The notes under the pieces: generated by a model
What the model saw: the letters and a program-made list of their open reading frames with translations, nothing else
What the model was told of the DNA's origin: nothing
Databases searched by the model: none
Virus record (IMG/VR): IMGVR_UViG_3300045988_094674
Span: 32,001 to 96,000 of that record
Direction: 5' to 3' (one strand)
DNA length: 64,000 bases
From: a virus
Shown: positions 37,069 through 63,238 of the stretch, piece by piece
Layout: every line of letters begins with the position of its first letter
Numbering within the stretch: the stretch's first letter is position 1
Program-made: the position numbers and the translations under genes

Positions 37069-37097
37069 ATAAAAAACCGACTTGGAGGTTTCGCACA

Positions 37098-37532: not shown

Positions 37533-37539
37533 GGCTATC

Positions 37540-39880: not shown

Positions 39881-39892
39881 GGAAACACACCT

Positions 39893-40213: not shown

Positions 40214-40281
40214 AATAAACCTCCTGATAAAAATAAAAGACCTACTAAAAAATCAATAGGTCATAGTTGATATATTAAATT

Positions 40282-40716
40282 TTATCCATTCTTTGGGTTG
40301 TTTTGACCGTCGATTAAATAGTTCTCAAGGGCAGCTTTTGCTTCCTTCATTGGCTCGATAGCATTTCCATCAATACCATGACTGAGCAGGGCAAGAAGAG
40401 CCTTCATAGTTACATTGCTTCCGTGTTCACTTTTATTGATGCGTTGCTCCGCCTCGACAATTTTGTGTTCGTGAACTTCAATCGTAATGGCATTTTCTTT
40501 CTGACGCTCTTCTAACTGAACAATCTTTGACTGAAAAAGGTCAAATCGATCTTTGTCAGCGGCAAGTTTCTTATCAATCGAATCGAACTTCTTGTCATGT
40601 TCTTCCAAATGTTCGTTCTGTTTGTTGTCTGGCTCCTTGATTTTACTGACAAATTTCATGATGACGGCGATAGCAGCCGAGATAGCAGTAATACCGCCAC
40701 AGATGCTTAAAATCAT
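40282..40716 (-). CDS. N-terminally anchored coiled-coil protein of the lysis module
   Basis: TM ILSICGGITAISAAIAVIM; no SD before ATG 40716; same frame is open through TAG 40720-40722 up to ATG 40782. Confidence 0.5.
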   Translation of the reverse strand: MILSICGGITAISAAIAVIMKFVSKIKEPDNKQNEHLEEHDKKFDSIDKKLAADKDRFDLFQSKIVQLEERQKENAITIEVHEHKIVEAEQRINKSEHGSNVTMKALLALLSHGIDGNAIEPMKEAKAALENYLIDGQNNPKNG

Positions 40717-40778
40717 GGTCTACAGTTGATGCATGGTAAAGGTGTATACGTGTGGTGCGGCATTCAATAGGACTGTAC

Positions 40779-40919
40779 TCATACTGTTGCGTCACCTCCG
40801 TTCTTAGCCTTCAGTGTCTCGTTGATGGCGGTAAGCTGGTTTGCAGCCGCATTCGGTGCCACGACAATCTCTTTCCCGGTCTCATCGAGGATAAAGGGCT
40901 TTAGTATTTCTTGTGCCAT
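40779..40919 (-). CDS. small protein (46 aa, below cutoff)
   Basis: RBS AAGGAGG 6 nt before ATG 40919. Confidence 0.5.
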   Translation of the reverse strand: MAQEILKPFILDETGKEIVVAPNAAANQLTAINETLKAKNGGDATV

Positions 40920-40935
40920 ACATTCCTCCTTTTTA

Positions 40936-40964
40936 TTGACAAAATTCTATCAACGTGATATGGT
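40936..40964 (+). promoter_or_regulatory. candidate plus-strand promoter in a minus-strand region
   Basis: TTGACA, 17-nt spacer, TATGGT. Confidence 0.4.
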
Positions 40965-40972
40965 TAAGTTAA
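40944..40972 (-). promoter_or_regulatory. candidate promoter for the lysis cassette
   Basis: TTAACT, 17-nt spacer, TGaTAGAAT (extended -10) on the minus strand. Confidence 0.4.
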
Positions 40973-41060
40973 ACATTCAATGTCGAGCGTGCATTACCTC
41001 ATTTATACGGGAAGAGTCTCTGTGCCCACAGCGGGTAATAGAGGCTCTTCCCTTTTATTT
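40971..41060 (+). ncRNA. candidate ~90-nt plus-strand small RNA
   Basis: Lies between the promoter at 40936-40964 and the terminator hairpin at 41009-41052 plus TTTTATTT. Confidence 0.3.
41009..41060 (+). terminator. intrinsic terminator (better formed on plus strand)
   Basis: 13-bp stem GGGAAGAGTCTCT/AGAGGCTCTTCCC; its single non-Watson-Crick pair is U-G on the plus strand and A-C on the minus strand; followed by TTTTATTT. Confidence 0.55.
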
Positions 41061-41495
41061 ACATATGGTTCTCCAGTGATAGTGCGGTTTATCCTCGTGG
41101 AATAACAAGTGTCGCAGCCAATCGTCAACATAGATGCACAACAACGAAAGAAAGAACCATAGCACTGTAAACGGTAGACAGATTTGACCTAGCAAATTGA
41201 AGGGTAGGGAAGAGTAGTCCCAGATATGTAACCCCAGCATCAGATTCAGCGGGATGCCCACGACAAGTTCCATTGCAGTCACAAATAACGCACCGACAAG
41301 ACCCTGTTCCCACATCGGCATCTCCCATGGAATATAATTGTTCAGACCGCCGATCACAACAAAGCAGATGCCACCCACTACAGCCATAGTCCAGTGTGAA
41401 TAACCACGCCACAATATTTCAATGCAATAATAAAGCGCCCCTCCTATCAAAAAGAGAAGGATGCACTTTAGATATTCTTTAACTTTACTCTTCAT
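41055..41495 (-). CDS. polytopic membrane protein, CmpB/'ABC-transporter type IV'-like
   Basis: 4-5 TM segments; CIEILWRGYSHWTM motif. Confidence 0.5.
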   Translation of the reverse strand: MKSKVKEYLKCILLFLIGGALYYCIEILWRGYSHWTMAVVGGICFVVIGGLNNYIPWEMPMWEQGLVGALFVTAMELVVGIPLNLMLGLHIWDYSSLPFNLLGQICLPFTVLWFFLSLLCIYVDDWLRHLLFHEDKPHYHWRTICK

Positions 41496-42025
41496 GATCT
41501 GACTACCTGAGCAACGCTGTCGTACTCGATTTTAATAGCATTAAGCTGTTCTAAAGTGTTACATTCCTTAATGCTCAATTCCAACTCCTGTTGATGAGAA
41601 ACAAATGGTTTAACATATACACCAATTTCTAGAGCTAACGCAGCTAAATTTTCATACGTCTACTCTACACATTCGGCACCAGTGCTATTCCATGTTAGCT
41701 TAAACGGCTGTGCGGTGGCTACAGAAATTTGATATAGAGCAAGATTTGAAGTCAACAAGGATTGCTTCTCACTTGTAACAGAATAATATTTACCATCTGT
41801 CCATTGTAATGGATGATTTTCAAGATATGTAGCTAGAATAGTTTTACTTTCTGAAACCTTTTTTTCTTTCTGAATCTTTAATGTATTTTCAGGATTGTTT
41901 TCAGTGAGTTCTGTGTATTCTTCTTTTGTTAATTTCCCTGCTAAATAAAAAGTATCTAATTTTGCAGTAAAATTATTTGTTTTTCCGGAAGCGATTACTT
42001 TTTTACATAGTTCATAAATGCTCAT
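41492..42025 (-). CDS. XkdX-like tail-module protein read through an in-frame TAG
   Basis: N-terminus FYLAGKLTKEEYTELT is XkdX-like; 55 sense codons follow TAG 41660-41662 and end in an ATGA overlap with the next gene. Confidence 0.6.
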
Positions 42026-42052
42026 AATAAATTACACTCTCCTCCTTTCTCT

Positions 42053-42235
42053 TTATTTAGCAGTTTCATCATCTGTCACGCCCAGCTCAAGAAGAGTCAG
42101 ACGGTAGTCCTGATCAAGGTTCAAAGCGTCCGCGTCCGCCAGAGCGGATTTCAGTGCTACTACCATTTCTGGCAACCTTTCTCTTATTTCCTTCTCCTGC
42201 CGGGTGGCCAGATTATCCTTTTTCCACTGAATCAT
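42053..42235 (-). CDS. hypothetical protein
   Basis: 60-aa ORF, GC-rich. Confidence 0.45.
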   Translation of the reverse strand: MIQWKKDNLATRQEKEIRERLPEMVVALKSALADADALNLDQDYRLTLLELGVTDDETAK

Positions 42236-42249
42236 AGTGACTGTCCTCC

Positions 42250-43509
42250 TTACTGGAATGCGCCGGAGACGGCTTTGATGTAGCCGCCGGTGCCGGATGC
42301 ACTGCGGCTGGCGCTGATGCGGAAATTGAATGCTGAACCGTTGGCAACAGTCTTGTTGGTGAACACGATGTTCATGCCTTTCTTCACCTCAGTGGTAGCA
42401 TCCTGCCAGGCTGGGGACGGGTCGTTGGCGTTGTTCGTGACCTCCGCCTTAAACACAGCATCATCGGGAATGCTACCCGTCACCTGAAGGACGGCAACGG
42501 TAATGTCACCATCCACTGCCAGCGGGGTGGTCAGGGTCACACTTGCGGCGTGGACGGCCTTGGTGAAGGTTGCGGACGCGCTGGTGGTTCCCTTGCCGTC
42601 GCTCACCTCAACCGTCATGGTGTGGTTGCCGTTCAGGATGCGCTGGAATCCGGCAGCATCGGCGACCTGCTCAAAGGTCAGGACCGTGCCGCTGGCAACA
42701 CCGGCGCGAGTTTTAGTGGTCTTGCCGTCCAGCTTTTCGGTGACAGTCAGCGTGTCGCCGTCGGCATCGGTAACGGTATACTTCCATGCAAAGACCGTGT
42801 TCTTCTCGCCAAGAGCTGCGCCGTCCGTGCTGACGGTAGGTGCAGTGTTGACACCGACCGTGCCGTCGTCAGAGACCGCGAGTGAAGAGGGCAGTACAAA
42901 AGCGGGGCGAACACCATAGGAGTAGCCGTACCAGTAGTTGCCGGTCTAGCCATTGATGTCAACGCCAAAGATGTTGGTGCCACTGCTGACGTCCGGAGAG
43001 CGCAGCCACCAAATGGCAGCGCTGCCGCCGTTGTAGGCGACACGCTTGTTGATGCCGTCAGAGCTGTTGTCGAAGTACGCCAGCCGAACACCCTCCTCGG
43101 GGAAATAGCTGTCGTCTCTGGTCGTAAAGCCAACCTCATAACCAGACAGCAGGAATACTTTCGTGCTCATGCCATTGGAGCCGGTGGCAAGGCTTCCGCC
43201 GCTGCCAACGCCGTTCTGGTACGGAATCTTGACCTATTTGATGACGTTGCGAATGTCCGTATCAATCAGGTTGTAGAATGTTCCGTTCAGGTATGTATCG
43301 ATGCTGGAACCCTTGTAGGAGTTATTGTTGCTGAACACAGACGTTGTGTAGATGTCCTTCATCAGCAGCTACGTCCCGGCACAACTCGAATCATAGGTGC
43401 TGGTATTCGGATTACCCTGCTGCACAACAATAAAATCTTTGGACGCGCCGTTGACCTTGATTTTAACGGTGCTGCCAACAGCCTTCATGCCGAGATTTAC
43501 ATTTGCCAT
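42250..43509 (-). CDS. receptor-binding/tail-fibre-like protein (DUF6273-like) with 3 in-frame TAG
   Basis: RBS AAGGAGGTG before ATG 43509; one frame through TAGs at 43369, 43234 and 42946; WWLRSP ... YGVRPAF; Ig-like DADGD region. Confidence 0.75.
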
Positions 43510-43527
43510 AAAAATTCACCTCCTTAC

Positions 43528-45402
43528 TCAAAATTCAATCCTTGCCTGTTCGGCGTTCCAAACGCCGGCAACGGTCAGGCCGTCCAGACTGCTGAATGTG
43601 GCGCTGAACGGATTCTTGGTCACGTTCGTGCCGAATTTGAGATCAATTGATTTTATAAGATTTTTAATTTCATCATACTTTGTATCAACAAGATCTTTAA
43701 GAACCTTGCCTTGTGCGGCACTCAAACTTTGATCTGTGTCTGTACTCGTTAAATTGTTTTGAATTCCACGCCAAGTATCGGTAAACTTTGCATCACTTGG
43801 TACGCTTTTCTCTAATGTGTAAGTACATGCAACAGGTTTACCACCAGAAAAATAAACTGGCTGAGATGCTGAACCAGCAGTTGCTGTATCAAGCTTAACA
43901 GCACTTATAGCGGAACCACCTACACTTGAAGATCCAGCGTAATTATGGGTATGATTGATAGGACTTTTTCCTGCCAGCGCATCACCGGTCGCTTTTGCAT
44001 CGGCAGGCGCACCAGAAATAGACAAAGTAGAATCTACAGCAATAGCGTTTTTTACTTTATCCGAATATTTTTTTGCATTTGCTTCAGATGCGGCCGCTGC
44101 CACAGCACTACTTTCTGCGTCATTTTTATTCATTTCGGACTCTTTTGCATAATTTGCTGCAGATTTGGCACTCTCGCTTGCCGCATTTTTATTCTTTTCA
44201 GTAACTAAAATCGAATCAGCTGCTTTTGTTGCACTTTCGCTTGCACTATTTGCAGATGCTAAAGCCGCTTCTTCACTAGCCTTTGATGCAGTTTCACTTG
44301 CTTTCGCATTAACTTCAGACGTGGACGCTGCTAGTTTAGATGTTTCAGCTGCTTTTTCTGATGCCTGAGCGTTAGATGCACTTTTGCTGGCAGCCGTCTC
44401 ACTTGCAGCGGAAGCAACTTCACTCGACTTTGCATTAGCTTCAGATTGTTTCGATGCGAGTTCACTGTTCTTGGAATTTGTTTCTGATTCTTTTGAATTT
44501 AGTTCTGATTTCTTTGCGTTATTTTCAGACGCGAGAGCCTTATCTTCAGAAATTTTCGCTTTGTTCTCACTATCCTCTGCGGCTAGTTCACTCTGTTTCG
44601 CAGCGTCTTTACTGTCGCTGGCTTCATGTGCAGAGGTTGCAGCACCTGTTTCAGATTGAGAAGCTGCTAACTCTGATTCTTTTGAAGCCAGCGCACTAGC
44701 TTTGGATGCGTCTTCACTATTTTTTGCCTTAACCGCACTTGTTTCGGCAGCATCGGCATATCCTTTAGATAAGTCACGATTTATTTCTGTCTTTGAGATA
44801 CTTTCTTTTGCTCGTTGTTCAATCTCTGCAAACCGGGCTGTCAAAATCTCCAAGTCAGACGGATCAACTTTTACTCCAGTTCCAGTTACGTTAATAGTCT
44901 CTTTAATTGGTAGGGAAGAGGGAAGTGTGTTAAAATTGTATGAAAACTCTTTTTTCCCGCTTTCGTTTGTTTCCAGACTATAAAAACGAATAGAGAACTT
45001 CACGATTCCATTGTGTGCAGTAACATCGTTTAGAATAGTCCATCCAAATAAAATCTTACCGGGAACAGTATCGATATCAATTTTAGTAATTGGATAAAAA
45101 CCGTCAGAGAGAACAGTTTCATATGCACCTTCATCACTGACCGATTCAAACTGAACTACGCACATTTCTGTGCTTAAATCATGCTGGTCAAAATATCTGT
45201 CGATCTCGAAATAAATAGTTTCCGCTGCATGATCATTTTCAACACCAAGGAATGTAAATTCATCAGGAACAGAAATTGTACGACTGTCAGCATCAATGAT
45301 AAAACGTGGCTCATCAGAGGGCAACATAACGAGTTCTTTTAATTGAGATTGATTTTGAATATCATCAAGTCGTTGTAGATATTCTTCTTTTGATGTGATC
45401 AA
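43528..45402 (-). CDS. tail fibre / upper-baseplate (BppU-N-like) protein with Ser/Ala/Glu-rich shaft
   Basis: TTG start after GAGGAGGTG; N-terminal ~190 aa paralogous to 45403-46176. Confidence 0.65.
   Translation of the reverse strand: MITSKEEYLQRLDDIQNQSQLKELVMLPSDEPRFIIDADSRTISVPDEFTFLGVENDHAAETIYFEIDRYFDQHDLSTEMCVVQFESVSDEGAYETVLSDGFYPITKIDIDTVPGKILFGWTILNDVTAHNGIVKFSIRFYSLETNESGKKEFSYNFNTLPSSLPIKETINVTGTGVKVDPSDLEILTARFAEIEQRAKESISKTEINRDLSKGYADAAETSAVKAKNSEDASKASALASKESELAASQSETGAATSAHEASDSKDAAKQSELAAEDSENKAKISEDKALASENNAKKSELNSKESETNSKNSELASKQSEANAKSSEVASAASETAASKSASNAQASEKAAETSKLAASTSEVNAKASETASKASEEAALASANSASESATKAADSILVTEKNKNAASESAKSAANYAKESEMNKNDAESSAVAAAASEANAKKYSDKVKNAIAVDSTLSISGAPADAKATGDALAGKSPINHTHNYAGSSSVGGSAISAVKLDTATAGSASQPVYFSGGKPVACTYTLEKSVPSDAKFTDTWRGIQNNLTSTDTDQSLSAAQGKVLKDLVDTKYDEIKNLIKSIDLKFGTNVTKNPFSATFSSLDGLTVAGVWNAEQARIEF
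44062..44760 (-). repeat. low-complexity Ser/Ala/Glu/Lys coding repeats
   Basis: About 230 aa of SE..A..S-type units (SKESELAASQSE, SKNSELASKQSEANAKSSE ...). Confidence 0.7.
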
Positions 45403-46176
45403 TTATGTCACCTCCTCATTTTGCGCTGACCAAATACTATTTAACTCTTCATATTGCGGTGTAACATCGCTATACATATCCGACACCTTTTTAAATAAGA
45501 CAAGCATTAGATTTTTTTCGTTTTGAGTTAGAGTAAACTTTTCTGCATTGGTGACAGCTGTATTGGCTCTCACAACATCTTTCCCAATGTTTTTTGCCAT
45601 AGTTGTAAATTTTTCAACTAAGCCTTCGACTTCTGCAGGCGGAATCTCTTTATCTGCGTCCATGGTGTCCAAAGAATCTTTTACGGGTAGCTCGACAGGA
45701 AGGGTATTGAAATTGTAAGCAAAAACAATAGTATCGTTTTCAGTTTTTGTCTCATAAAATCGAATAGAAAATCTTACATTTACAGCATAAGCCGTAACAT
45801 CGTTTTGAATCTCCCATCCAAAAATAATCTTACCATCTGCCGTATCTACATCCATTTTTACAACAGGATAAAACCCCGAACTGATTACCTGTTCTGAACC
45901 TTCAGTCGTATCAATAGACTCAAATTGAACGATACAAGTTTTCTCACTTAAATCTGCTTTATCAAAATATCGATCGATTTCAAAATAGATAGTCTCTGCT
46001 TTGTGGTCGTTTTTTACTCCAAGAAAAGTAAACTCGTCTGGAATCGTAATGGTGCGCTGATTTGCGTCAATAATGAAACGAGACTCGTTGCCCGGTAACA
46101 TAACCAACTGCTTTAGTCCTGCCTGATTCTGGATATCGTTAAGCCGCTCCATATACTCACTAGAAGAAGTAATCAC
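45403..46176 (-). CDS. BppU-N-like baseplate protein (short paralog)
   Basis: GTG start after GGAAGGAG; MITS..EY..RL.DIQNQ...LVMLP...RFIIDA shared with the downstream gene. Confidence 0.6.
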   Translation of the reverse strand: MITSSSEYMERLNDIQNQAGLKQLVMLPGNESRFIIDANQRTITIPDEFTFLGVKNDHKAETIYFEIDRYFDKADLSEKTCIVQFESIDTTEGSEQVISSGFYPVVKMDVDTADGKIIFGWEIQNDVTAYAVNVRFSIRFYETKTENDTIVFAYNFNTLPVELPVKDSLDTMDADKEIPPAEVEGLVEKFTTMAKNIGKDVVRANTAVTNAEKFTLTQNEKNLMLVLFKKVSDMYSDVTPQYEELNSIWSAQNEEVT

Positions 46177-46661: not shown

Positions 46662-46678
46662 AATACCACTCCTTTCAT

Positions 46679-49624: not shown

Positions 49625-49636
49625 GGCTCCACCTCC

Positions 49637-50995: not shown

Positions 50996-51023
50996 TTTAA
51001 CGCCTCCTTTGTTTTGTTAAGAT

Positions 51024-51299: not shown

Positions 51300-51300
51300 C

Positions 51301-53064: not shown

Positions 53065-53080
53065 CTCATCCCTCCTTTAT

Positions 53081-53132
53081 AAAACAAAATATACCCGGGC
53101 TCAACCTACCCAACCCACCCTGAGCCGGGTAT
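53081..53132 (-). terminator. intrinsic terminator after tape-measure ORF
   Basis: Stem ATACCCGG(G)CTCA/TGAGCCGGGTAT, followed on the minus strand by ATTTTGTTTT. Confidence 0.55.
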
Positions 53133-53167
53133 AATTCGTTTTCGTTTAAAATTTACTTCTATCTGAT

Positions 53168-56100: not shown

Positions 56101-58405
56101 TGTTATTGAGAAGATCAGGGTAATCCTTATACTGAGTAACAAGATTACGAATCGCATCTGTTTGTTTATCGATAGAATCTGCATCAGCAATACCAAACTG
56201 ACTATCACCCAACGTTTTGATAACGTCTTTTAACCCAGAAAATGCGGATTTTATAGCATCCGTCTTTTCCTTAGCCTTGTCCATCGCAGTGCCGTAGCCC
56301 TTGATAGCGTCAGTCAACTGCTCAAAAGAGATGGTTTCAGAATCAACACTAGAATTCAACCAGTCGAGAATCTTCTTCATCTCGCCAGCAGACTTGCCAC
56401 CATCATTAGCCGCATTTGCTTCCTTGAGTTGTGCCTTAATAAATGTGCGGAATTTGGCTGTATTAAGTTCAAGTTTTCCGTTTTGCTCCGTCAAACAAGC
56501 AGTAAACTTGTCATCGACACCAATCAGTGACTTCATTGTATCAGCACAGATATAACCATATTGGTTATATTCTTTCATGGCCTTTGTTAAGGTATCAAAA
56601 GCAGAAGCAATATCAGTCACAGACTTCGCAGTAGACTTGTTGTTCTTGCTGGCCTTATTTGTCGGGAACCCATTCAACTGATTTGTTAATGCTCGCCCAC
56701 CCTTTAAAGCGGCATTCATATTGGTGTACAGCAAAGAAAGCTGAGTATTTGTGCGAGTCGTGATTTCCTCTAGTTTTGCAGGATCTACGCCGCGTTCGCC
56801 GGCCTTCTCTACTTCGTTTGCAAACTCCTGAGCTGCACTGTATGTCGCAGTAGCCGCAGTAGCATTTTTCAAAGCAGGAAGAAGATTTTCCAGAGCAGTC
56901 TTTTCAGCCTCTGTTTTCTCTTTTAAATCATCAGTGCTTTCAGCCGTGTCATCTGCAGTAAGGTTTGCGACCTCATGTTGTGCGTTAGAAAGAATTGTGG
57001 CGGCAGCTTCTGCGTATTCAGCAGCAAGTAACTCGGCATAACTCTGTTTATTTATCTGGAGCTTACCATTAACAAGCTCAAGGCAATTCAGATATTCGGT
57101 GTTCATCGTCAGTAAAGACTGAAGAGAATCAAGACTCATGTAACCATACTGATTGTACTCTTCCATTGCACTGGTAGAAGCTTTATACGCAGACTGGATT
57201 TCATCCATTTTGGAAGAAATATCTTCCATCTTCTGTGCGCCAGCAGCCAATGCGTCAACACCATTTGCAGAAGACTGAGCTACAATACCAACTTGAACAA
57301 GTGCTTGGATAAACGCATTCACACCGTTTGTGTCAGCAGAGAAGTCCATGTCGGTCAGAGCTTTGCGAAGATTTGCAAGGGCTTGAGCTTGCTCGTCGGA
57401 TAATCCTTCGTTTGTACCCCACAAGAGTTCATTCAGCTTACTTGCATCAAATCCATCAATCGTATCTTCCAGAGTTTGAACAGCAGAATTTACCTTATCG
57501 AAAGTAAAACTGACATCCATACTGTTATTATTGTCATTCTGCCAAAAATCAACTGCTTGAAGTTTTCTACGAGCGTTTGTATTGTTGTTGATAGCATCCG
57601 TTGAGTCGTTGTAAGAATCTACATCATCACGGAGAGCAGATTGTTCATCAAGCAAGAATTGATACAGACTATGATACGTTCCACCGGCAGCTCGTTCAGC
57701 CTCAGTTGTGTTATCAATGATATATTTTAATGCTTTGCCAACTTCGTTGTAATAATCAACAATTGAATCCGCATCATTTAACTTGTCAGGTCCATAACCA
57801 CCGAACTTGTTAAAGACATCAATGCCAGCATTTTTAATCTGGTCTCCCATATCCATTTCAGGAGCCGACCAAACAGTAAGATAATGCGTCCGATTATTCT
57901 TCTTGGCTGTATCAACAAGCTTATCGCCTTGAGCATCTTTGTTCTGTGTCAACTCATAACGAGATGCCTCTAACTGCTCCGCTGTAATATCCTGAAGTAA
58001 TCCAAGCTGCTCTTCATACTTGCCATTTTGAAGGTCAAGTTTACCAAGTTTATTTTCATCAAGCGTTCTTTGTTCTTTCGCAAGATCAAGAATCTCTGCC
58101 TGAATGTCTTTTGCTTGATCAAAGTCCTCTGTATCCCAACCAGACTTGTCGCCAAGTTCTTCATAAGCACTGACCAAATCCTTTAAAGAGGAAGTGGTGC
58201 TCTGTGCAGCATCGGCGGCTTCCTTGGATTTCGTTGCGACATTTTGCACTCGTTGTGCCGCTTCCGTAATCTTCTTAGTGCCCCAAGAGACAAGCAGGCC
58301 AATTCCAACACCCAGCGCGGCATTGAGCAGTAAAGCTTCAGCTCTTAACGCAATCATTTTCAACCGCGTTCCTTCAAGTTCAAGTTTAGCTTGACCTGAT
58401 AACAT
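53168..58405 (-). CDS. tape-measure-like protein, large distal part
   Basis: 1745 aa coiled-coil protein with Gly/Ala-rich hydrophobic block; no SD before ATG 58405; frame stays open upstream to 58633. Confidence 0.7.
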   Translation of the reverse strand: MLSGQAKLELEGTRLKMIALRAEALLLNAALGVGIGLLVSWGTKKITEAAQRVQNVATKSKEAADAAQSTTSSLKDLVSAYEELGDKSGWDTEDFDQAKDIQAEILDLAKEQRTLDENKLGKLDLQNGKYEEQLGLLQDITAEQLEASRYELTQNKDAQGDKLVDTAKKNNRTHYLTVWSAPEMDMGDQIKNAGIDVFNKFGGYGPDKLNDADSIVDYYNEVGKALKYIIDNTTEAERAAGGTYHSLYQFLLDEQSALRDDVDSYNDSTDAINNNTNARRKLQAVDFWQNDNNNSMDVSFTFDKVNSAVQTLEDTIDGFDASKLNELLWGTNEGLSDEQAQALANLRKALTDMDFSADTNGVNAFIQALVQVGIVAQSSANGVDALAAGAQKMEDISSKMDEIQSAYKASTSAMEEYNQYGYMSLDSLQSLLTMNTEYLNCLELVNGKLQINKQSYAELLAAEYAEAAATILSNAQHEVANLTADDTAESTDDLKEKTEAEKTALENLLPALKNATAATATYSAAQEFANEVEKAGERGVDPAKLEEITTRTNTQLSLLYTNMNAALKGGRALTNQLNGFPTNKASKNNKSTAKSVTDIASAFDTLTKAMKEYNQYGYICADTMKSLIGVDDKFTACLTEQNGKLELNTAKFRTFIKAQLKEANAANDGGKSAGEMKKILDWLNSSVDSETISFEQLTDAIKGYGTAMDKAKEKTDAIKSAFSGLKDVIKTLGDSQFGIADADSIDKQTDAIRNLVTQYKDYPDLLNNIVDENGNINLNTEAFKNALAKTLEDLANTAKETGGAGADALYNAYHSASQNISQGKITPTDWASGLGTDLSNANDVLDRYQSNWNTLKDAMDEWNETGQLTQDTMQNLMALPDEFSSLLGYDEDGNAKLDVKTLRDNYVKQLKELAKEFEGKPIGIQAEAAIEDVREPTPEEYEKLAKKTLTYQKALARYTRKISKINSNKDLTEDEALQQKEEAQAELDGALQESLLEVQETDAQVTTKLKKHWEGVESVIDNFKNALSDVKDILNSFLSLIEKFNTNNSNDLKLWGDVMGDVIDKRIEALNKQKEALEENNDATERAIELAKAQDELARAEQQRTSRVYTENGYEWQADPEAVRTARQDLNDKQRQWNKEDAEKAIDDQIKKYNEFKDKLSEVMEDIGTSWDDYNKKLQYTAQIQEMTLGQMAGSLDGYHNKIIASLQNSGTISGIQTVISNLESLIGTLEKLNNVYNFLQTGTYTDGGFVGLVNTVKKVFGKNSSTSITKTITNSLDTITDATEVTFGGNGITGVINNSMTDGVKNAVVNAQKELGSATTKNGLIGVFQNAWDAIGSGAKSLFSNSSSNSLTSIFSDGISNIGKIISNAFGGKGAGTSGGSGILGWLGNLLGIGGVSLSSVPAMTATNTAGLTGLSKLMADGAIGANVAGAGGTAVAAAGGSSLLAAVPIVGAVLAGLGVGVNHFAGLNKIWKSNDDTGTKIGKSLFSTVFNSSGGVLSIAALIHDTIGRANDKKNGTTSKTLAEKVYEWPIWFWNWGKKTTSQLDDVSKNTKDTANDVKKKKNKTNITVNAVQTTVNNGNKTSDSSGSSSSSSSSVSNGQQKQQSFWDKLWGSKFWFWNWGKKAVGDKGVKHTGTYNVDEQGSELIVRQPQSGRYTYLETGDGVVPADITSRLFEMGGNPDKWFTDQMAKHSTATMVQSRNPGGISMTIGDVNVNNPVGDTDALARQIVQQLPNKMVQRLNKR

Positions 58406-58553
58406 CCATTTGATAAAATCAGAAATAGAAAGATTAGTTTCGCCAGGAATACTCTTGTAAGCTTTATATTTTTCAATTAAAGCAACTAACGAAGTACCTA
58501 CTTGGTTAAAAGCACTTATCTGTAATTCTTTTTCTTTGGAGTCAACCGTAAAG

Positions 58554-58564
58554 AAAGTTAATAT
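58554..58564. repeat. left copy of 11-bp inverted repeat AAAGTTAATAT
   Basis: Exact reverse complement of 60816-60826. Confidence 0.5.
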
Positions 58565-58588
58565 CGATTTCGAGGAGATGTGAAATCT

Positions 58589-59002
58589 ATGGAAAAATAT
58601 GTACGGTATTGTCCATTTTGCGATAAATACTATTCAAGATGGGACTTATTATGTGCTTTTTGTATTCGAGACAATATTTTGCTTATAGAATGGAACGAAA
58701 TGACAAAAAAACAAAAAGAAGAATGGAAAAATAAAACTAAGCCAAGGAGAAGTATTTCTGAAATAAATCCAGATACTCTCAAAAAACTTCAAAAGAATGC
58801 CAATACTTTCGATTCCCAATATAGAGCAGAACTGGAAGAAAAGGAACATCCTAAATACACCCCAAAATGCCCTACATGCGGCTCGCCAGACCTAGAAAAG
58901 ATCGGAACCGCTTCTAAAGTCTTGGATGTTGCTTTCTGGGGATTTGCCAGTGGAAAAGTGAAGAAAACTTTCCATTGTAAGAATTGTGGATATGAGTGGT
59001 GA
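58589..59002 (+). CDS. zinc-ribbon protein (opposite strand to the tail genes)
   Basis: RBS GAGGAG; CPFCDK...CAFC and CPTCGS...CKNCGYEW. Confidence 0.6.
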   Translation: MEKYVRYCPFCDKYYSRWDLLCAFCIRDNILLIEWNEMTKKQKEEWKNKTKPRRSISEINPDTLKKLQKNANTFDSQYRAELEEKEHPKYTPKCPTCGSPDLEKIGTASKVLDVAFWGFASGKVKKTFHCKNCGYEW

Positions 59003-59036
59003 TAAAAGAAAAGCCCTACTACACAAAGTAGCAGGG
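59003..59036 (-). terminator. hairpin terminator after the membrane-protein gene
   Basis: CCCTACTAC/GTAGCAGGG stem, followed on the minus strand by CTTTTCTTTTAT. Confidence 0.45.
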
Positions 59037-59053
59037 TAGTGGTCGTATTCGTT

Positions 59054-59659
59054 TTAGCGTAGAACGTATTTCGCAGTTTCGGAATCCAGATTGTCGTACA
59101 TGAACTCGAATCGTTTTACGTGAGACATTGGGACACATAAAGCTGTATCATCATTTAAATGAGAAACAGCTTCATCCATCTTATCTCCGTTCCGATCAGT
59201 TGCTGTGGCATGGTAAGTCAAAACGATATAGTCATTATCGGCGTTTTCGATTGTGCCATAAATATAGGTTCCATCGTCCATATGAAGCATCACATCGGTT
59301 TGCCCACTAAAATCGATATGGCGAGTCCAAATATTGTCGCCAGTATCGTAGCCGAGATGATTACTAAACCACTTTCTTACCGGAATAGAGTTTTTGATTT
59401 TGTAAAACAAGGAAGAGCATACAATGCCAGTTACAATATAAACAATAACGATAGGAAAACCCTTGATAGTGAATCTTCCAAGTAAATGGTCAGCGTAATC
59501 AACGATATACTTGATAGTAAATCCAAAAGCAATACTTAATGAAAGAAACCCTTGGTATTCAATTTTCTTTAAAGAAAGCTTTGTGTAAAACCAAACACAA
59601 AGAGCTCCTGGAACAAATACATTGAATAGTGTTTCGACATTATTTACTAGTTCCTTCAT
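59054..59659 (-). CDS. membrane protein with soluble C-terminal domain
   Basis: ATG 59659 after GGAGGG; 3-4 TM segments then a ~90-aa beta-rich domain. Confidence 0.55.
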   Translation of the reverse strand: MKELVNNVETLFNVFVPGALCVWFYTKLSLKKIEYQGFLSLSIAFGFTIKYIVDYADHLLGRFTIKGFPIVIVYIVTGIVCSSLFYKIKNSIPVRKWFSNHLGYDTGDNIWTRHIDFSGQTDVMLHMDDGTYIYGTIENADNDYIVLTYHATATDRNGDKMDEAVSHLNDDTALCVPMSHVKRFEFMYDNLDSETAKYVLR

Positions 59660-59834
59660 TCGACCCTCCATTCCCTCGTTGTTTATCGCGGTTTCTAAGA
59701 TAAGAGCCGCCATGTGTTTTTACCGAATCTGTACCGGAATAAGTATAAGTATTCCTTGGAGACTGACGTTCTTGAGTCGGTGCCCCATACGTAGAGATTT
59801 CATAATTCGGCACATGCTTTTTATTGTTTTCCAT
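59640..59834 (-). CDS. small hydrophilic protein
   Basis: RBS AAAGGAG 10 nt before ATG 59834; overlaps next start by 20 nt. Confidence 0.4.
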   Translation of the reverse strand: MENNKKHVPNYEISTYGAPTQERQSPRNTYTYSGTDSVKTHGGSYLRNRDKQRGNGGSNEGTSK

Positions 59835-59890
59835 GGTTCAACACTCCTTTTACAAGAGTGTATCACAGACTGTCGTAAAAAGCAACGCAA

Positions 59891-59929
59891 ATTAAAACGC
59901 CCGGCCTCCCAGTAGTAGGGAAGTCGGGC
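59891..59929 (-). terminator. GC-rich hairpin terminator
   Basis: GCCCGGCCTCCC/GGGAAGTCGGGC stem with T-rich tracts on both sides. Confidence 0.55.
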
Positions 59930-59954
59930 TTATTTTATGATGACTGCGCCGTTG

Positions 59955-60287
59955 TTATTTCAGAAGTTCAGCGATTTCTTCAGCAGTCATACCATTTGCC
60001 AGTGCGTTAGCAACGATATCTTCTGCCTTTTTACGATTCAGCTCTGCGGCAATCTTTTCATCGGCATCAGCCTTTTTCTTTTCGAGCTTTACAATCTCTT
60101 TATTGATTTTCTTCAATTCAGCTTCCTTAGCTTTTTTATCAGCATTCAGTGCAGCAATATTGGTGCCGAGTGCTGTGATTTCTTCAGCAAGAGATTCTGC
60201 GGCAGTATTCTTTTCAGCAATCTGTGCTGCGTAATCAATACCATCAAGAACCTTTGCTTTATTCTTACTTCCCTTGGGTCTAGCCAT
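59955..60287 (-). CDS. AT-hook-like N-terminus + coiled-coil small protein (DUF4315-like)
   Basis: ATG 60287 after GGAGGTG; MARPKGSKNK; ends GMTAEEIAELLK. Confidence 0.55.
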   Translation of the reverse strand: MARPKGSKNKAKVLDGIDYAAQIAEKNTAAESLAEEITALGTNIAALNADKKAKEAELKKINKEIVKLEKKKADADEKIAAELNRKKAEDIVANALANGMTAEEIAELLK

Positions 60288-60330
60288 AATAAAACACCTC
60301 CGTATATTTTGGATACGCGATTGTAATATT

Positions 60331-60359
60331 ATTATAGCCAGAATATCGTATGTAGTCAA
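60331..60359 (-). promoter_or_regulatory. near-consensus sigma70 promoter inside the cassette
   Basis: TTGACT, 17-nt spacer, TATAAT on the minus strand, ~37 nt before ATG 60287. Confidence 0.65.
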
Positions 60360-60537
60360 CGAATATTTTGTTTTCTCCTATTTTGTATCGCGCCAGAGAG
60401 TAGCGCGTCTCCTCATTTCCACCTACTTCTTTAAGTCGTCTGGTTACGTCTGAGGTGGACTTCTGAACTTTCGCCCAGAACTGACTATCCTTCCAGTGGT
60501 TGCTCACTGACCCTTTTTAGTCGATGAACCTTCCACC

Positions 60538-60553
60538 TTCCTACATTATATAA
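60538..60553 (-). promoter_or_regulatory. 16-nt repeat TTATATAATGTAGGAA (minus strand), copy 1
   Basis: Contains TATAAT; identical copy 152 bp upstream; TATAATGTAG is also the -10 region at 15267-15276. Confidence 0.4.
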
Positions 60554-60689
60554 TAGGGGAGTGGATCGGCTGCTGACCGCCCATTGTAAACGCTACTTAG
60601 CACTCGATTATTACCATATTTTGGCAATACGATAAAACCGAGCTTTTATCTCAGCATATAGCATCCATATCCTTGTTTCTATCTTTCGA

Positions 60690-60705
60690 TTCCTACATTA
60701 TATAA
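60690..60705 (-). promoter_or_regulatory. 16-nt repeat TTATATAATGTAGGAA (minus strand), copy 2
   Basis: Identical to 60538-60553. Confidence 0.4.
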
Positions 60706-60790
60706 ATATAACAATAGGCGATATGGCTCTTAGGGTTTCCCAGCACTCTAGGGGCTATTTTATTTTTACATGGTGCCGCATCCTATATTT

Positions 60791-63238
60791 TTATACGCAA
60801 CAAATATAAGAGGGCATATTAACTTTACCCGCACCATTTTTGAGCTTTCCGCTCATCTGCATTACAGACAACACGCCGGAAATGGCGGCTGTCAGAGTTG
60901 GTAATGCGCCAGCAAATTTTACAGCACTATCTGCACCGTCAACAAAAACAGTAGCAAGGCTTATAAAGAACTTCGGGATATCAGACTTCATCAAGTCCGT
61001 ACTAAACTTCTGGAATGCAGAATCAAGCTGATTAAGCTTCGCCTGCAAGGAGTCCATGTACGTCTGGTTCTCACGCATTGCGCTGCCACTAGAATTGAGT
61101 GCCTGCTTCATAGCGTCTTCAGCAACACTAAAATTATTCAGCAGGGCAGATGTACTCTGACCTCCTCTCTTTCCAGAGATCAGCTCAGTAATATTTGCCT
61201 GTGTTGTGTCAGACAGATCTTTCCAAACCTCAGAAAGTTCCTTCATAATCTGATAGGTTGATTTGAAGGTATTATTATCCTTCATAATATCAACACCAGC
61301 AAGTTGCTTCAACTCAGATCGAAGTTCGGACACAGAATCTGCCATCCCATCTGTTGCGATACCGGCATTTTCTGCATCTGTTTTTGAAGCACGAAGGTAC
61401 ATACTCAAAGTTTTTAGGTAAGTGCCACTCGTATCTGCGTCCTGAAGTACACCGTTTACAGCAGACGCCAAACTAAGCGTCTCCTGATATGTATTTCCGG
61501 CGGCAGACATCGCAGCGGAACTTTTCTGCATGATAATTCCAAGGTCGTTCATACTGACTGGTTCAGTATTAGCGATTTGGTTCATGCAGTCCAGAAGACG
61601 CTCTGCATCATCAGCAACCAACCCAAAACCTTGCATTGCAGAAATCAGGTAAGAAGAAGCAGTTGTTGCATTATCTATCTGGTCTCCAACATTAGCCATA
61701 AGAGCAGACACACGAGCAAGCTCTTCAGAGTCTTTGTCCGTATATCCAAGTCGCTTCTAATCGGCAGTGCTACTTACAAGATCAGAAATATTAGCACCAA
61801 GATTACGAGCGTTTGTTGCAGTTCTATCGAGATATTCGTTCATCTCGTCGTCAGTCATTTTACTGACTTTTTTAAGCTCTGTTACAGCCGTATCAAGTTC
61901 CAGAACATTATTATAAACCTCTCGCAGACCTTGTTTGACCATAGCCACGCCAGCCATAGCAATAGCTGTCTGGAAGTGCTCCTTAAACAGACGAGACAGT
62001 TTTTGACCAAGAGTTTCTGTAGTGGCCCCACATCTGCTGGCCTCAACCTCAAGATTTGATAGTCTTGCACTAAGATCAGTAACATTGCCTTCACAGCCAG
62101 CAGCAGAAGCTTTTATTCCGTTTAAACTATCAATTAGCCAAGAATATTTACTTTTATTTGCAATAGAGTCTTCTAACTTCGTTGCACGTTCATAAACACT
62201 CTTAAACTTCGTCATATCAACATTGGCTTGATTTATATCTCTAAAATCAAATCCAAGTTCTTTTAAATGTTGACTTGTAGAATCAATAGTTGTATCAAGA
62301 GTCTTGCATTTTTTATCAAAGTCTTGAATTGCTTTCCCTGGTGTAGTGTTCTCAATAGAAGCAAGCTGATCTCGTAACTCTTTTAACTTTCCAGAAGTTT
62401 TTCCAGTTCCATCTTCTCCATATAAATATTTTTTGATATTATCATTTTTATAGTTGGAGTTATTCTTAGAATAGTTTTCAAGAGACTGAATCTTTTTTTG
62501 ATATTTTTCATACTCGGATTCTTGAGATATGAGAGTCTTTTTTAAATCATCTGCAATTTCTTGATTTTGTTTTTTTAGTTCTTTTGCAGCCGAATCAGCA
62601 CCTTTTGCAGTATTCCTGTCAGCATTGAATTTTCCGGTTTTTTCGATATCCTCAAGCTTTAACTTCTGAGTTTCCGTAATTACATCTTTTGTTTTTGTCT
62701 TGAGTTTATCCATCTCATCGTTGATTGCGCTCAATCTAGTCTGTACCGCTTTCAACTCAGATGATTTGTTTCCATTAGCAATTAACAATGCTTCATCCGC
62801 TTTTAACTTTGCTTGACGATTTGCAAGGCTGAAAAGGCGAGAAATATCACTTTTTGAAGTATCTTGCGGTTTTGCAGAACCAGACTTTCCGGTATCAACC
62901 TTAACTGTCTGCTTTGCTGCAGATTGCATAGCTTTTTTAAGCTGTGCGGTTACTTTACTCTGGTCAACCTTAACATCAAGTGTAACCTTTGGAGTTCTTA
63001 ATTTTCCACTCTTGACCACCTTGTCAAGTGCGTCATTTATATTGCGGATTGTATCGTTTTGATTCACTCCGAAAGCAATTTTTACTGGTTTTTCTTTATA
63101 ATACTCTTTAACAGAATTAAATTGCTTGTCTAACTCTGCTTTATTTGCGTCAATAACAACCTTAACCTTGATAGCTGTTACAGAGGAAGTATCAGCACTA
63201 CTTGCGGTGTTTGTATTATCCGCCATACCGTTGGTCAC
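60791..63238 (-). CDS. tape-measure protein, proximal part with TP901-type core, read through an in-frame TAG
   Basis: ORFs 61757-63238 and 60791-61711 share one frame joined by TAG 61757-61759; core ANVGDQIDNATTASSYLISAMQGFGL...; start at 63238 (GTG) or 63226 (ATG). Confidence 0.75.
60816..60826. repeat. right copy of 11-bp inverted repeat (ATATTAACTTT)
   Basis: Reverse complement of 58554-58564; lies where the upstream TMP ORF stops looking protein-like. Confidence 0.5.

What the first reader, a model, noticed from the sequence alone, without database searches (positions are those of the whole stretch)
40282..63238. Amber (TAG) stop-codon recoding: in-frame TAGs in late genes and no TAG terminators anywhere
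Seven TAG codons sit inside otherwise continuous minus-strand reading frames. They are at 41660-62, 42946-48, 43234-36, 43369-71, 48872-74, 49391-93 and 61757-59. An eighth possible one is at 40720-22. In each case I hand-translated across the TAG. The same frame continues with sense codons, the downstream fragment has no RBS or ATG of its own, and recognisable domains span the TAG (WWLRSP ... TAG ... YGVRPAF, and the TP901-type tape-measure core). No TAA or TGA interrupts any gene. Every terminator I checked for about 95 CDS is TAA or TGA. Pseudogenisation would not be TAG-specific. Stop-codon recoding of TAG, usually to Gln (code 15), is known from gut phages, but the standard-code ORF track hides it here.
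Basis: partly seen in the sequence, partly recalled or inferred. Interest (0 to 1): 0.9.

Follow-up and report, generated by a model that had tools for sequence, protein, structure and literature searches.

The report
Gut phage reads TAG as tryptophan
The late genes of this large, SPbeta-like phage from the human gut contain eight in-frame TAG stop codons that are most likely translated, mainly as tryptophan, by a phage tRNA derived from tRNA-Trp; the known phage recoding of TAG is to glutamine.

Summary
All eight TAGs are at the stated coordinates, in frame, in five minus-strand late genes. No TAA, TGA or frameshift interrupts any gene. None of 73 curated genes ends in TAG. The 53 early genes contain no TAG.

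TAG is a sense codon here, but it is not code 15 (Gln).
- Five of the eight TAGs fall on conserved Trp columns of homologs: 99/113, 60/60, 117/120, 141/150 and 97/111.
- One falls on a conserved Gln (119/120).
- Two fall in variable stretches where homologs have Ser.

The window has no tRNA. About 15 kb beyond its end, related contigs carry a tRNA cluster.
- 45 of 80 relatives have a tRNA(CUA) there.
- 9 of 80 have a tRNA-Trp(CCA) in the same slot, with the same acceptor stem, G73 and anticodon loop.
- One relative is 99.4% identical to the window over the tape-measure (TMP) region and shares its TMP TAG. It carries the tRNA(CUA).
- In-frame TAGs occur in 11 of 12 contigs with tRNA(CUA) and in 0 of 19 without it.

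I found no report of TAG-to-Trp coding in phages, only a passing tRNA isotype prediction. The recoding is too sparse for coding-density screens. The inserted amino acid is inferred, not measured.

The parts
61757..61759 (-). In-frame TAG, codon 494 of the tape measure protein
   Evidence: TAG verified. In 120 homologs the column is W 99, F 11, others 3, gaps 7. The same TAG is present in L084-L086.
49391..49393 (-). In-frame TAG, codon 78 of the 981-aa DUF5048 baseplate-like protein
   Evidence: W in 60 of 60 aligned family members. TGG in the 98%-identical strain L203.
48872..48874 (-). In-frame TAG, codon 251 of the same protein
   Evidence: Shared with L203. It lies in a poorly aligned, lineage-specific stretch: a gap in MAFFT, S 25 of 27 in local BLAST alignments. 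Ancestral residue undetermined.
43369..43371 (-). In-frame TAG, codon 47 of the DUF6273/Ig-domain protein
   Evidence: W in 117 of 120 homologs. TGG in Toutatis gp82 and in L203.
43234..43236 (-). In-frame TAG, codon 92 of the DUF6273 protein
   Evidence: Q in 119 of 120 homologs. CAG in Toutatis and L203. This is the clearest non-Trp site.
42946..42948 (-). In-frame TAG, codon 188 of the DUF6273 protein, inside the stretch that is the DGR variable region in phage Toutatis
   Evidence: S in 94 of 120 homologs. Toutatis has TCC in both its variable region and its template repeat. The TAG is shared with L203 and with P0005, whose gene call stops exactly here.
41660..41662 (-). In-frame TAG, codon 122 of a 177-aa late protein of unknown function
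   Evidence: W in 141 of 150 representatives, F 5, Y 1. TAG also in L203.
40720..40722 (-). In-frame TAG, codon 21 of a 166-aa membrane/coiled-coil protein next to the holin
   Evidence: RBS GGAGGTG lies before the ATG at 40782. Homologs have W 97 and Q 14; the closest ones (95-98% identical) have Q.
60791..63238 (-). Tape measure protein gene (815 aa, TP901-type core), one TAG
   Evidence: PF10145, E = 2e-22, spans the TAG. Standard-code ORFs split it into 493 + 306 aa.
46679..49624 (-). 981-aa baseplate-like protein gene (C-terminal DUF5048), two TAGs
   Evidence: PF16467. Relatives of 830-965 aa are uninterrupted or carry TAGs at other Trp columns.
42250..43509 (-). DUF6273 + Ig-like protein gene (419 aa), three TAGs; homolog of the DGR target (Hoc-like decoration protein) of Faecalibacterium phages Toutatis and Lelie
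   Evidence: PF19789 and Big_9. About 82% nucleotide identity to Toutatis and Lelie.
41492..42025 (-). 177-aa late gene, one TAG
   Evidence: 653 homologs at E <= 1e-3; alignments span the TAG.
40282..40782 (-). 166-aa membrane protein gene in the lysis region, one TAG
   Evidence: Its neighbours are the holin at 39893-40213 (Phage_holin_6_1) and the endolysin at 39233-39880 (Peptidase_M15).
38997..63914 (-). Late (lysis, tail, baseplate) module: 20 genes, 91 TGG and 7 TAG (8 counting the site at 40720), all terminators TAA or TGA
13..38944 (+). Early/replication module, TAG-free: 53 genes, 171 TGG, 0 in-frame TAG, 0 TAG terminators
   Evidence: Includes PolIII alpha, RecD2, DNA ligase, NrdD, ThyX, FolD and an integrase.

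Best explanation
The window is about half of a temperate SPbeta-like phage of roughly 130 kb from the human gut. In this phage TAG is a rare sense codon confined to late genes.

**Proposed mechanism**
1. The phage carries an amber-suppressor tRNA with anticodon CUA. It lies in a tRNA cluster about 15 kb beyond window position 64000, on the late-gene strand and upstream of the structural genes.
2. The tRNA descends from a phage tRNA-Trp(CCA) through a C35-to-U change in the anticodon.
3. When the tRNA is expressed, ribosomes read through the one to three TAGs in each of five late genes: the tape measure, the baseplate-like protein, the DUF6273 decoration/adhesin protein, a 177-aa protein and a membrane protein next to the holin. 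They insert mainly tryptophan.
4. Without the tRNA, for example in a lysogen or early in infection, host RF1 would truncate these proteins. TAG would then act as a late-gene gate, as proposed for TAG-to-Gln and TGA-to-Trp phages.

**Shown here**
- The TAGs are in frame.
- TAG is not used as a terminator.
- TAGs are restricted to late genes.
- TAGs sit mostly on Trp columns of homologs.
- The tRNA exists, resembles tRNA-Trp, and co-occurs with in-frame TAGs.

**Inferred**
- That the window's own genome carries the tRNA.
- That the tRNA is charged with Trp.
- The timing and gating role.
For: **1. TAG sits on Trp columns.** Window sites: W 99/113, 60/60, 117/120, 141/150, 97/111. Family-wide, 33 distinct TAG columns include 16 that are W-majority and 5 more that are W-containing mixes, against 2 that are Q-majority.

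**2. TGG and TAG interchange between near-identical strains.** Between the window and L203 (98% identical) there are three TGG/TAG swaps in about 12 kb, as expected for near-synonymous codons.

**3. The suppressor tRNA.**
- 45 of 80 syntenic loci carry a tRNA(CUA); 9 of 80 carry tRNA-Trp(CCA) in the same slot.
- Both kinds share a GCGCC... acceptor stem, G73, an encoded CCA end and the anticodon loop CU-NNN-AA.
- For 20 of 24 CUA variants, the nearest non-CUA tRNA in the loci is tRNA-Trp, at 71-78% identity.
- The L204 tRNA folds as a cloverleaf and scores 40.9 bits on the Rfam tRNA model.

**4. Own lineage.** L204 is 100% identical to L086 over their 3.9-kb overlap. L086 is 99.4% identical to the window over the tape-measure region and has the same TAG. 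L204 carries tRNA(CUA) at 4391-4465.

**5. Co-occurrence.** 11 of 12 contigs with tRNA(CUA) have validated in-frame TAGs, 34 in all. None of 19 contigs with tRNA-Trp(CCA) or neither tRNA has one (Fisher p = 1.4e-7, not corrected for phylogeny).

**6. Terminators and distribution.** No TAG terminator among 73 window genes, and no in-frame TAG in 53 early genes. TAG terminators are rare across the whole family, 8 of 393 in the clade without in-frame TAGs (its paired contigs carry tRNA-Trp(CCA) or neither tRNA in all but one case), against 5 of 25 in Toutatis and Lelie.

**7. Only TAG interrupts genes.** No TAA, TGA or frameshift does.
Against: - Three of the eight window TAGs are not on Trp columns. 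Codon 92 of the DUF6273 gene is Q in 119 of 120 homologs. Codons at 42946 and 48872 align with Ser. The closest homologs of the 40720 site have Q.
- A few family columns are Q- or E-majority.
- In E. coli, a tRNA-Trp with a CUA anticodon loses recognition by TrpRS and is charged by GlnRS (PMC2965240, citing Yaniv et al. 1974). Descent from tRNA-Trp therefore does not prove charging with Trp.
- The suppressor tRNA is not in the window. It was found only in close relatives, not in the identical strain.
- No phage TrpRS, release factor or RF1 inhibitor was found in the proteins I scanned.
- There is no proteomic or expression evidence.
- The co-occurrence statistic is not corrected for shared ancestry.
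Confidence: 0.78

Rival explanations
1. Code 15: TAG is read as glutamine through a Gln-accepting suppressor, as in crAss-like and Lak phages.
For: TAG-to-Gln is the only amber recoding reported for phages. One window TAG (43234) is on a Gln conserved in 119 of 120 homologs. The closest homologs at 40720 have Q. E. coli tRNA-Trp(CUA) is charged with Gln.
Against: Five of eight window TAGs, and 16 of 33 family columns, are on conserved Trp; only 2 family columns are Gln-majority. CAG is about twice as common as TGG in these genes, so a Gln meaning should give mostly Q columns. W-to-Q at invariant Trp positions, inherited across lineages, would be selected against. The tRNA resembles tRNA-Trp more than the phage's own tRNA-Gln(UUG).
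Confidence: 0.05
2. Ambiguous decoding: the Trp-derived tRNA(CUA) is charged partly with Trp and partly with Gln, like E. coli su+7, or competes with near-cognate tRNA-Gln. TAG then yields a Trp/Gln mixture and can replace either codon.
For: Between near-identical strains TAG swaps with both TGG (three times) and CAG (once). At the 40720 column the residues are W 97 and Q 14, with TAG in the window and CAG in the closest relatives, which suggests a TGG -> TAG -> CAG path. DUF6273 codon 92 is an invariant Q. The E. coli precedent is.
Against: Trp columns greatly outnumber Gln columns even though CAG codons are more abundant. The Q-column cases are terminal-branch or single-lineage events that could be slightly deleterious polymorphisms. 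There is no direct evidence on charging. Whether the host has a GlnRS is unknown.
Confidence: 0.13
3. The TAGs are plain nonsense mutations in a decaying or defective prophage, or come from G-to-A / C-to-T hypermutation by a deaminase, and are not translated.
For: TGG -> TAG and CAG -> TAG are both single transitions. Three TAGs cluster in one horizontally acquired gene, on W, Q and S columns.
Against: No TAA, TGA or frameshift occurs in any gene. TAG sites are shared by lineages whose proteins are only 35-38% identical to the window's. Random nonsense hits would fall mostly on the far more common CAG, AAG, GAG, TTG, TCG and TAY codons, not on TGG. There is near-perfect co-occurrence with a tRNA(CUA). 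TAG terminators are avoided. Essential genes such as the tape measure and baseplate are affected in many abundant, independently assembled genomes.
Confidence: 0.03
4. Another route to a sense reading: either pyrrolysine insertion (ARAGORN labels the tRNA 'Pyl'), or A-to-I mRNA editing of UAG to UIG, which is read as Trp.
For: A CUA anticodon is also the anticodon of tRNA-Pyl. UAG-to-UIG editing would also give Trp; the known example is the hepatitis delta virus amber/W site (my own knowledge).
Against: The tRNA has a 5-bp anticodon stem and a normal-sized D arm, and it shares its acceptor and anticodon arms with tRNA-Trp. No pyl genes were seen in the annotated parts. Pyl would not track conserved Trp columns. 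The known bacterial TadA mRNA editing needs a tRNA-Arg-like UACG loop (my own knowledge), which does not fit the TAG contexts. A dedicated tRNA(CUA) makes editing unnecessary.
Confidence: 0.01

Closest known systems
Alternatively coded gut phages with TAG->Gln (code 15) or TGA->Trp (code 4): crAss-like, Lak, and the Garnet/Topaz/Agate/Jade clades (Borges et al. 2021/2022; Peters et al. 2022)
   Same: A stop codon is read as sense in late structural and lysis genes while early genes and the integrase stay compatible with the standard code. The phage encodes the suppressor tRNA. The recoded stop is depleted as a terminator, also in non-recoded relatives. The phages are temperate or from the gut.
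   Different: - The amino acid differs. [quoted passage not shown]
- Usage is very sparse: 8 TAGs in 64 kb, about 8% of late-gene Trp codons, whereas up to 28% of ORFs are affected in a phage such as phAss-1. Screens based on coding density would miss it.
- The phage belongs to an SPbeta-like lineage.
E. coli su+7 (supU) amber suppressor: tRNA-Trp with a C35-to-U anticodon change
   Same: An amber suppressor made from tRNA-Trp by a single anticodon change, keeping G73 and a weak 1-72 pair.
   Different: su+7 is a laboratory mutant of a host tRNA and is charged by GlnRS. Here the tRNA is natural and phage-borne, has diversified into at least six sequence types, and the codon evidence points to Trp.
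Genetic code 32 (Balanophoraceae plastids, TAG->Trp)
   Same: The same codon reassignment, TAG to Trp. As far as I know and as far as my literature searches show, it is the only catalogued code with this meaning.
   Different: It is a genome-wide code of a reduced, AT-rich plastid genome. The case here is a conditional, late-gene-only reading imposed by a virus on a host that presumably uses the standard code. The two are evolutionarily unrelated.
Phage tRNA-Sup(CUA) with predicted Trp isotype next to theta ribozymes (Kienbeck et al. 2024, PMC10879173)
   Same: That study reported that 19.4% of 180 phage amber-suppressor tRNAs had a tRNAscan-SE Trp isotype and called this 'rarely reported code 32'. 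These are probably tRNAs of the same kind.
   Different: It was an isotype prediction only and was still read as supporting code 15. No codon-level evidence, phage family or CCA/CUA allelism was described. I found no theta or HDV-like ribozyme by Rfam next to the L204 tRNA, and I did not search with their motif.
Bacillus phage SPbeta and relatives
   Same: - Genome size: related contigs are 125-150 kb.
- Pfam families YonD_N, YonB, YomW and YomU_Tube, and a 'yomI'-named tape-measure homolog.
- Temperate lifestyle with recombinases.
   Different: The host is a gut anaerobe, probably Faecalibacterium or a relative, not Bacillus. The phage carries two tRNA clusters and the amber suppressor. To my knowledge no stop-codon recoding is described for SPbeta itself.

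Membership tests
Stop-codon-recoded ('alternatively coded') phages | In-frame copies of one stop codon inside conserved, essential genes, with homology continuing across them | tested here: met
   Eight TAGs in five late genes. Pfam domains and homolog alignments span them.
Stop-codon-recoded ('alternatively coded') phages | The recoded stop is not used, or hardly used, as a terminator | tested here: met
   0 of 73 window genes end in TAG. Family-wide the figure is about 2%.
Stop-codon-recoded ('alternatively coded') phages | Phage-encoded suppressor tRNA matching the recoded stop | tested here: inconclusive
   Absent from the window. Present in 45 of 80 syntenic relatives and in L204, the same phage as L086 (L086 is 99.4% identical to the window over the tape-measure region). 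The window's own genome outside the 64 kb could not be read.
Stop-codon-recoded ('alternatively coded') phages | Coding density rises markedly (at least 5-10%) under the alternative code, the criterion used by screening pipelines | tested here: not met
   Minus-strand ORFs of at least 100 aa in the late region sum to 7141 aa under the standard code and 8038 aa with TAG as sense. That difference is about 4% of the window. It is smaller once short fragments are also called as genes.
Genetic code 15 (TAG = Gln) | TAG positions align with Gln in homologs | tested here: not met
   Window sites: 5 Trp, 1 Gln, 2 Ser. Family columns: 16 W-majority against 2 Q-majority.
Genetic code 15 (TAG = Gln) | Suppressor tRNA of Gln type | tested here: not met
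   The nearest non-CUA tRNA is tRNA-Trp(CCA) for 20 of 24 variants. It shares the genomic slot, acceptor stem and anticodon arm with tRNA-Trp(CCA). tRNAscan-SE isotype models were not available.
TAG = Trp coding (the codon meaning of code 32) | TAG positions align with conserved Trp in homologs | tested here: met
   W at 99/113, 60/60, 117/120, 141/150 and 97/111.
TAG = Trp coding (the codon meaning of code 32) | Trp is physically inserted at TAG | not testable with these tools
   This needs proteomics or aminoacylation assays.
tRNA-Pyl / pyrrolysine decoding | The atypical tRNA-Pyl architecture (6-bp anticodon stem, tiny D loop, 3-nt variable loop; my own knowledge) together with pylS/pylBCD genes | tested here: not met
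   The tRNA has a 5-bp anticodon stem and arms like tRNA-Trp. No pyl-like Pfam hits appear in the annotated window or flanking genes. That annotation was not exhaustive.
Diversity-generating retroelement (for the DUF6273 gene) | Reverse transcriptase, Avd and a template repeat matching the variable region | tested here: not met
   The homolog of the variable region is at 42865-43059. No second copy exists in the window, and no RT, Avd or template repeat exists in any fetched family locus. About 45 kb of the genome was not seen.
SPbeta-like phages | SPbeta structural gene families and a genome of about 130 kb | tested here: met
   Precomputed Pfam hits to YonD_N, YonB, YomW and YomU_Tube on contigs continuous with the window; related contigs of 125-150 kb. 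No phylogeny was made.

The most novel reading that the evidence does not exclude
This phage family may have caught a genetic-code change in progress. The same tRNA gene slot holds either tRNA-Trp(CCA) or an amber-reading CUA derivative in otherwise similar phages. The CUA form may be charged with both Trp and Gln, as in E. coli su+7. TAG would then be a naturally ambiguous codon that swaps with both TGG and CAG and gates late-gene expression in a temperate phage. That would be a living example of the ambiguous-intermediate route to codon reassignment.
Probability: 0.15. Interest if true: 0.9.

Novelty: new variant of a known kind. Interest (0 to 1): 0.74.

Why it matters
- **A second meaning for TAG in phages.** Stop-codon recoding in phages is currently treated as two cases, TAG-to-Gln and TGA-to-Trp. 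Annotation tools such as Prodigal-gv, Pharokka-gv and Mgcod test only those tables, and they rely on gains in coding density.
- **Annotation errors.** A Trp meaning used sparingly would be invisible to those screens. Tape measure, baseplate and lysis genes would be split or mistranslated in a common group of human-gut phage genomes of about 130 kb. I saw more than 100 related IMG/VR contigs and 62 ENA contigs carrying this tRNA family.
- **A natural amber suppressor.** The tRNA is Trp-derived and apparently keeps Trp-compatible function despite the C35U change. In E. coli that change switches identity to Gln. This bears on tRNA identity rules and on the design of orthogonal tRNAs.
- **A test system.** Sister phages with the CCA or the CUA allele form a natural experiment on how codon reassignment starts.

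Tried and rejected
1. **First family-wide census of TAG columns gave mostly Gln. This was an artefact.** Antisense 'shadow' ORFs turn synonymous Leu CTA/CTG changes into apparent TAG/CAG columns. I confirmed this at L006 20423-21529. Some TAGs also lie just upstream of true start codons. After removing shadows, Trp dominates.
2. **tRNA in the window or the nearest flanks.** None in the window or in the baseplate loci. tRNA cluster 1, about 4 kb before the window start, has 7-8 tRNAs but none with CUA.
3. **My first tRNA search pattern had the wrong gap lengths.** It missed the known variants, but it turned up a further tRNA(CUA) type in 28 other contigs. Those contigs gave too few TAG columns to tell what TAG means there.
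4. **Base after the TAG.** In the window 6 of 8 TAGs are followed by A. Family-wide this does not differ from TGG codons (15/29 against 131/297, p = 0.44). Dropped.
5. **DGR mutagenesis as the source of the TAG at 42946.** The Toutatis template repeat has TCC there, with no adenine. No RT or template repeat was found. Not supported.
6. **Host identification.** GTDB representative genomes gave only distant hits, at most 50% identity over part of the protein (Lachnospiraceae MAG 42%, Anaerovorax 39%, Paenibacillus 47-50%). GenBank phages include no close relative. Homologs of the p166 lysis-region gene and the DUF6273 decoration gene that carry Faecalibacterium names are only a hint.
7. **Rfam.** No hit at gathering threshold in the window. 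No ribozyme next to the L204 tRNAs. No repeated spacer motif.
8. **phAss-1.** This 136-kb TAG-recoded gut phage is a different, TAG-to-Gln group.

Full report
**1. What the window is**

The window has 40.9% G+C and two convergent gene blocks.

- **Early block, + strand, 13-38944.** It encodes replication and nucleotide-metabolism functions: PolIII alpha, RecD2, DNA ligase, RecJ-like, NrdD, ThyX, FolD and a tyrosine integrase.
- **Late block, - strand, 38997-63914.** It encodes the endolysin, the holin, a DUF6273/Ig protein, a tail fibre, a DUF5048 baseplate-like protein, a 1745-aa protein and a TP901-type tape measure.

Contigs continuous with the window carry Pfam families of Bacillus phage SPbeta: YonD_N, YonB, YomW and YomU_Tube. 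Related IMG/VR contigs are mostly 125-150 kb. The window is therefore about half of an SPbeta-like temperate phage from human gut metagenomes. GenBank phages and GTDB representative genomes contain no close relative.

**2. The observation**

- All eight coordinates are TAG on the minus strand.
- With only TAA and TGA as stops, five genes become continuous: 815, 981, 419, 177 and 166 aa.
- Pfam domains span the TAGs.
- The eighth TAG (40720) lies in a gene that starts at the ATG at 40782, behind a GGAGGTG ribosome-binding site. The ATG just after the TAG has no such site. Full-length homologs cover the position.
- No TAA, TGA or frameshift interrupts any gene.
- Stop codons of the 73 curated genes are TAA 45, TGA 28, TAG 0.
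- Early genes have 171 TGG and 0 TAG. Late genes have 91 TGG and 7 TAG (8 counting the site at 40720).
- Independent assemblies show the same TAGs.

**3. What TAG stands for**

I aligned each affected protein with homologs.

| Window TAG | Gene, codon | Residue in homologs |
|---|---|---|
| 61757 | tape measure, 494 | W 99, F 11 of 113 |
| 49391 | baseplate-like, 78 | W 60 of 60 |
| 43369 | DUF6273, 47 | W 117 of 120 |
| 41660 | 177-aa protein, 122 | W 141 of 150 |
| 40720 | 166-aa protein, 21 | W 97, Q 14 |
| 43234 | DUF6273, 92 | Q 119 of 120 |
| 42946 | DUF6273, 188 | S 94 of 120; inside what is the DGR variable region in phage Toutatis |
| 48872 | baseplate-like, 251 | poorly aligned: gap in MAFFT, S in local BLAST |

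Relatives carry TAGs at other positions of the same genes, and those positions are again Trp columns. After grouping TAG sites into 33 distinct alignment columns, 16 are W-majority and 5 more are W-containing mixes (with C, F, Y, T or G). Two are Q-majority. Several of the rest are artefacts, such as ORFs lying over tRNA clusters or stretches upstream of the true start.

An early version of this census gave mostly Q. That came from antisense ORFs, where synonymous Leu CTA/CTG changes mimic TAG/CAG.

Trp is about 1.3% of codons and CAG is about twice as frequent as TGG. The excess of Trp columns therefore cannot be chance, and it contradicts a Gln meaning.

Between the window and a 98%-identical strain (L203), TAG swaps with TGG three times and with CAG once.

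**4. The suppressor tRNA**

- The window has no tRNA.
- A first tRNA cluster lies about 4 kb before the window start, next to a Pnkp-like RNA-repair gene. It has no CUA anticodon.
- A second cluster lies 5-7 kb upstream of the YonD-like gene, which is about 15 kb beyond window position 64000.
  - In 45 of 80 relatives it holds a tRNA with anticodon CUA. ARAGORN missed some variants with unusual T loops.
  - In 9 of 80 relatives it holds a tRNA-Trp(CCA) in the same slot.
- The two kinds share the acceptor stem (GCGCC.../...G(G/A)CGU), discriminator G73, an encoded CCA end and the anticodon loop (CU-CUA-AA against CU-CCA-AA).
- For 20 of 24 CUA variants, the most similar other tRNA in all fetched loci is tRNA-Trp.
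- L204 (ODTB01000052.1, 127 kb) is 100% identical to L086 over their overlap. L086 is 99.4% identical to the window across the tape-measure region and has the same TAG. L204 carries the tRNA(CUA), on the late-gene strand and upstream of the structural genes. It folds as a cloverleaf.
- On contigs where both regions were fetched, 11 of 12 with tRNA(CUA) have validated in-frame TAGs, and 0 of 19 with tRNA-Trp(CCA) or neither do.
- TAG terminators are rare in the whole family, including the clade without in-frame TAGs, whose paired contigs mostly lack the CUA tRNA. This fits the idea that depletion of a stop codon precedes its recoding.

**5. Mechanism and its limits**

The best-supported reading is that a phage tRNA-Trp gene acquired a C35U anticodon change. 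Its product suppresses amber codons that arose mainly from TGG in late genes. This gives a conditional TAG = Trp reading that could tie tail, baseplate and lysis-region proteins to expression of the phage tRNA.

The gating role and the charging with Trp are inferences. In E. coli the equivalent mutant tRNA is charged by GlnRS. Three window TAGs are not on Trp columns. A mixed Trp/Gln reading therefore remains possible.

Plain nonsense mutation, hypermutation, pyrrolysine and RNA editing fit the data poorly (see the rival explanations).

**6. Relation to what is known**

- Phage stop-codon recoding is well described, but only as TAG-to-Gln and TGA-to-Trp. Borges et al. say so explicitly.
- TAG-to-Trp is catalogued only for Balanophoraceae plastids (code 32).
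- The only phage-related hint I found is a sentence reporting that 19.4% of 180 phage amber-suppressor tRNAs have a predicted Trp isotype. Those authors still took this as support for code 15.
- Six full-text literature searches found no description of TAG-to-Trp coding in a phage. The searched library does not include most subscription journals.

I rate this a new variant of a known kind. It is notable for three things: the amino acid, the sparse use that escapes density-based screens, and the CCA/CUA alleles at one tRNA locus.

Noticed in passing
window 42250-43509 (variable-region homolog at 42865-43059): The DUF6273/Ig gene is about 82% identical in nucleotides to the DGR target ('Hoc-like head decoration') of Faecalibacterium phages Toutatis and Lelie. 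The rest of the late-region stretch searched (40000-64000) has no match in those phages. This looks like a horizontally acquired, possibly orphaned DGR target: no RT, Avd or template repeat was found in the window or in any fetched locus. The variable region still differs between the window and strain L203.
   Followed up: partly
L087-L090 about 5350-7100 (about 3-4.5 kb upstream of window position 1): A first tRNA cluster of 7-8 genes (Leu-CAA, Leu-UAA, Pro-UGG, Gln-UUG, Leu-UAG, Gly-UCC twice) sits next to a Pnkp-like gene (AAA_33-Metallophos-RNA_lig_T4_1), a PemK toxin and a DNA methylase. The last slot holds tRNA-Ile(UAU) in L087 and L088 but tRNA-Met/Ile2(CAU) in L089 and L090. This is a second anticodon polymorphism at one tRNA locus.
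   Followed up: no
L090 6599-6665: A weak tRNA-like element (Rfam tRNA model, 30 bits) that ARAGORN does not call. Read by eye, its anticodon loop seems to have only 5 nt and its acceptor stem looks degenerate. It may be a pseudo-tRNA.
   Followed up: no
window about 58400-60790: The island between the tape measure gene and the 1745-aa gene is mosaic. Strains that are otherwise 95-99% identical carry different genes here (DUF3800 and retropepsin-like in L084-L086). The window's own ORFs here have no Pfam or PHROG match. Both strands show overlapping ORFs; a JGI gene call supports the minus-strand ones.
   Followed up: partly
window 53168-58405: This 1745-aa late protein has no PHROG hit and was not scanned against Pfam. 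Its apparent counterparts in relatives (1700-2070 aa, at the same place in the gene order) carry several of the family's TAG codons, while the window copy has 27 TGG and no TAG.
   Followed up: no
window 35775-37001; L083-L086 9001-9990: There are two tyrosine recombinases. One lies at the early/late junction in the window. A second, XerC-like one lies immediately beyond the window end, between the tail-tube region and the gene at 63357-63914. Contig L203 ends just past the first integrase, which suggests that attP lies in the 35454-35775 intergenic region.
   Followed up: no
L171-L198 and most of L205-L265 (other contigs of 70-190 kb; two on 0.57-Mb and 1.5-Mb contigs): A fourth type of tRNA(CUA) with the same GCGCC...GGGCGUGCCA frame and a canonical GGTTCGAATCC T arm occurs in many other gut contigs. 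Two of these contigs are very long (0.57 and 1.5 Mb) and may contain integrated prophages. What TAG means in those genomes could not be determined.
   Followed up: partly
window as a whole; tRNA clusters in L087-L090 and L092-L170: The phage is AT-rich (41% G+C). Most of its roughly 13 tRNAs have U at the wobble position and so read A-ending codons. This would fit a much more GC-rich host such as Faecalibacterium, as also hinted by the names on homologs of the p166 lysis-region gene and the DUF6273 decoration gene. The host is unproven.
   Followed up: no
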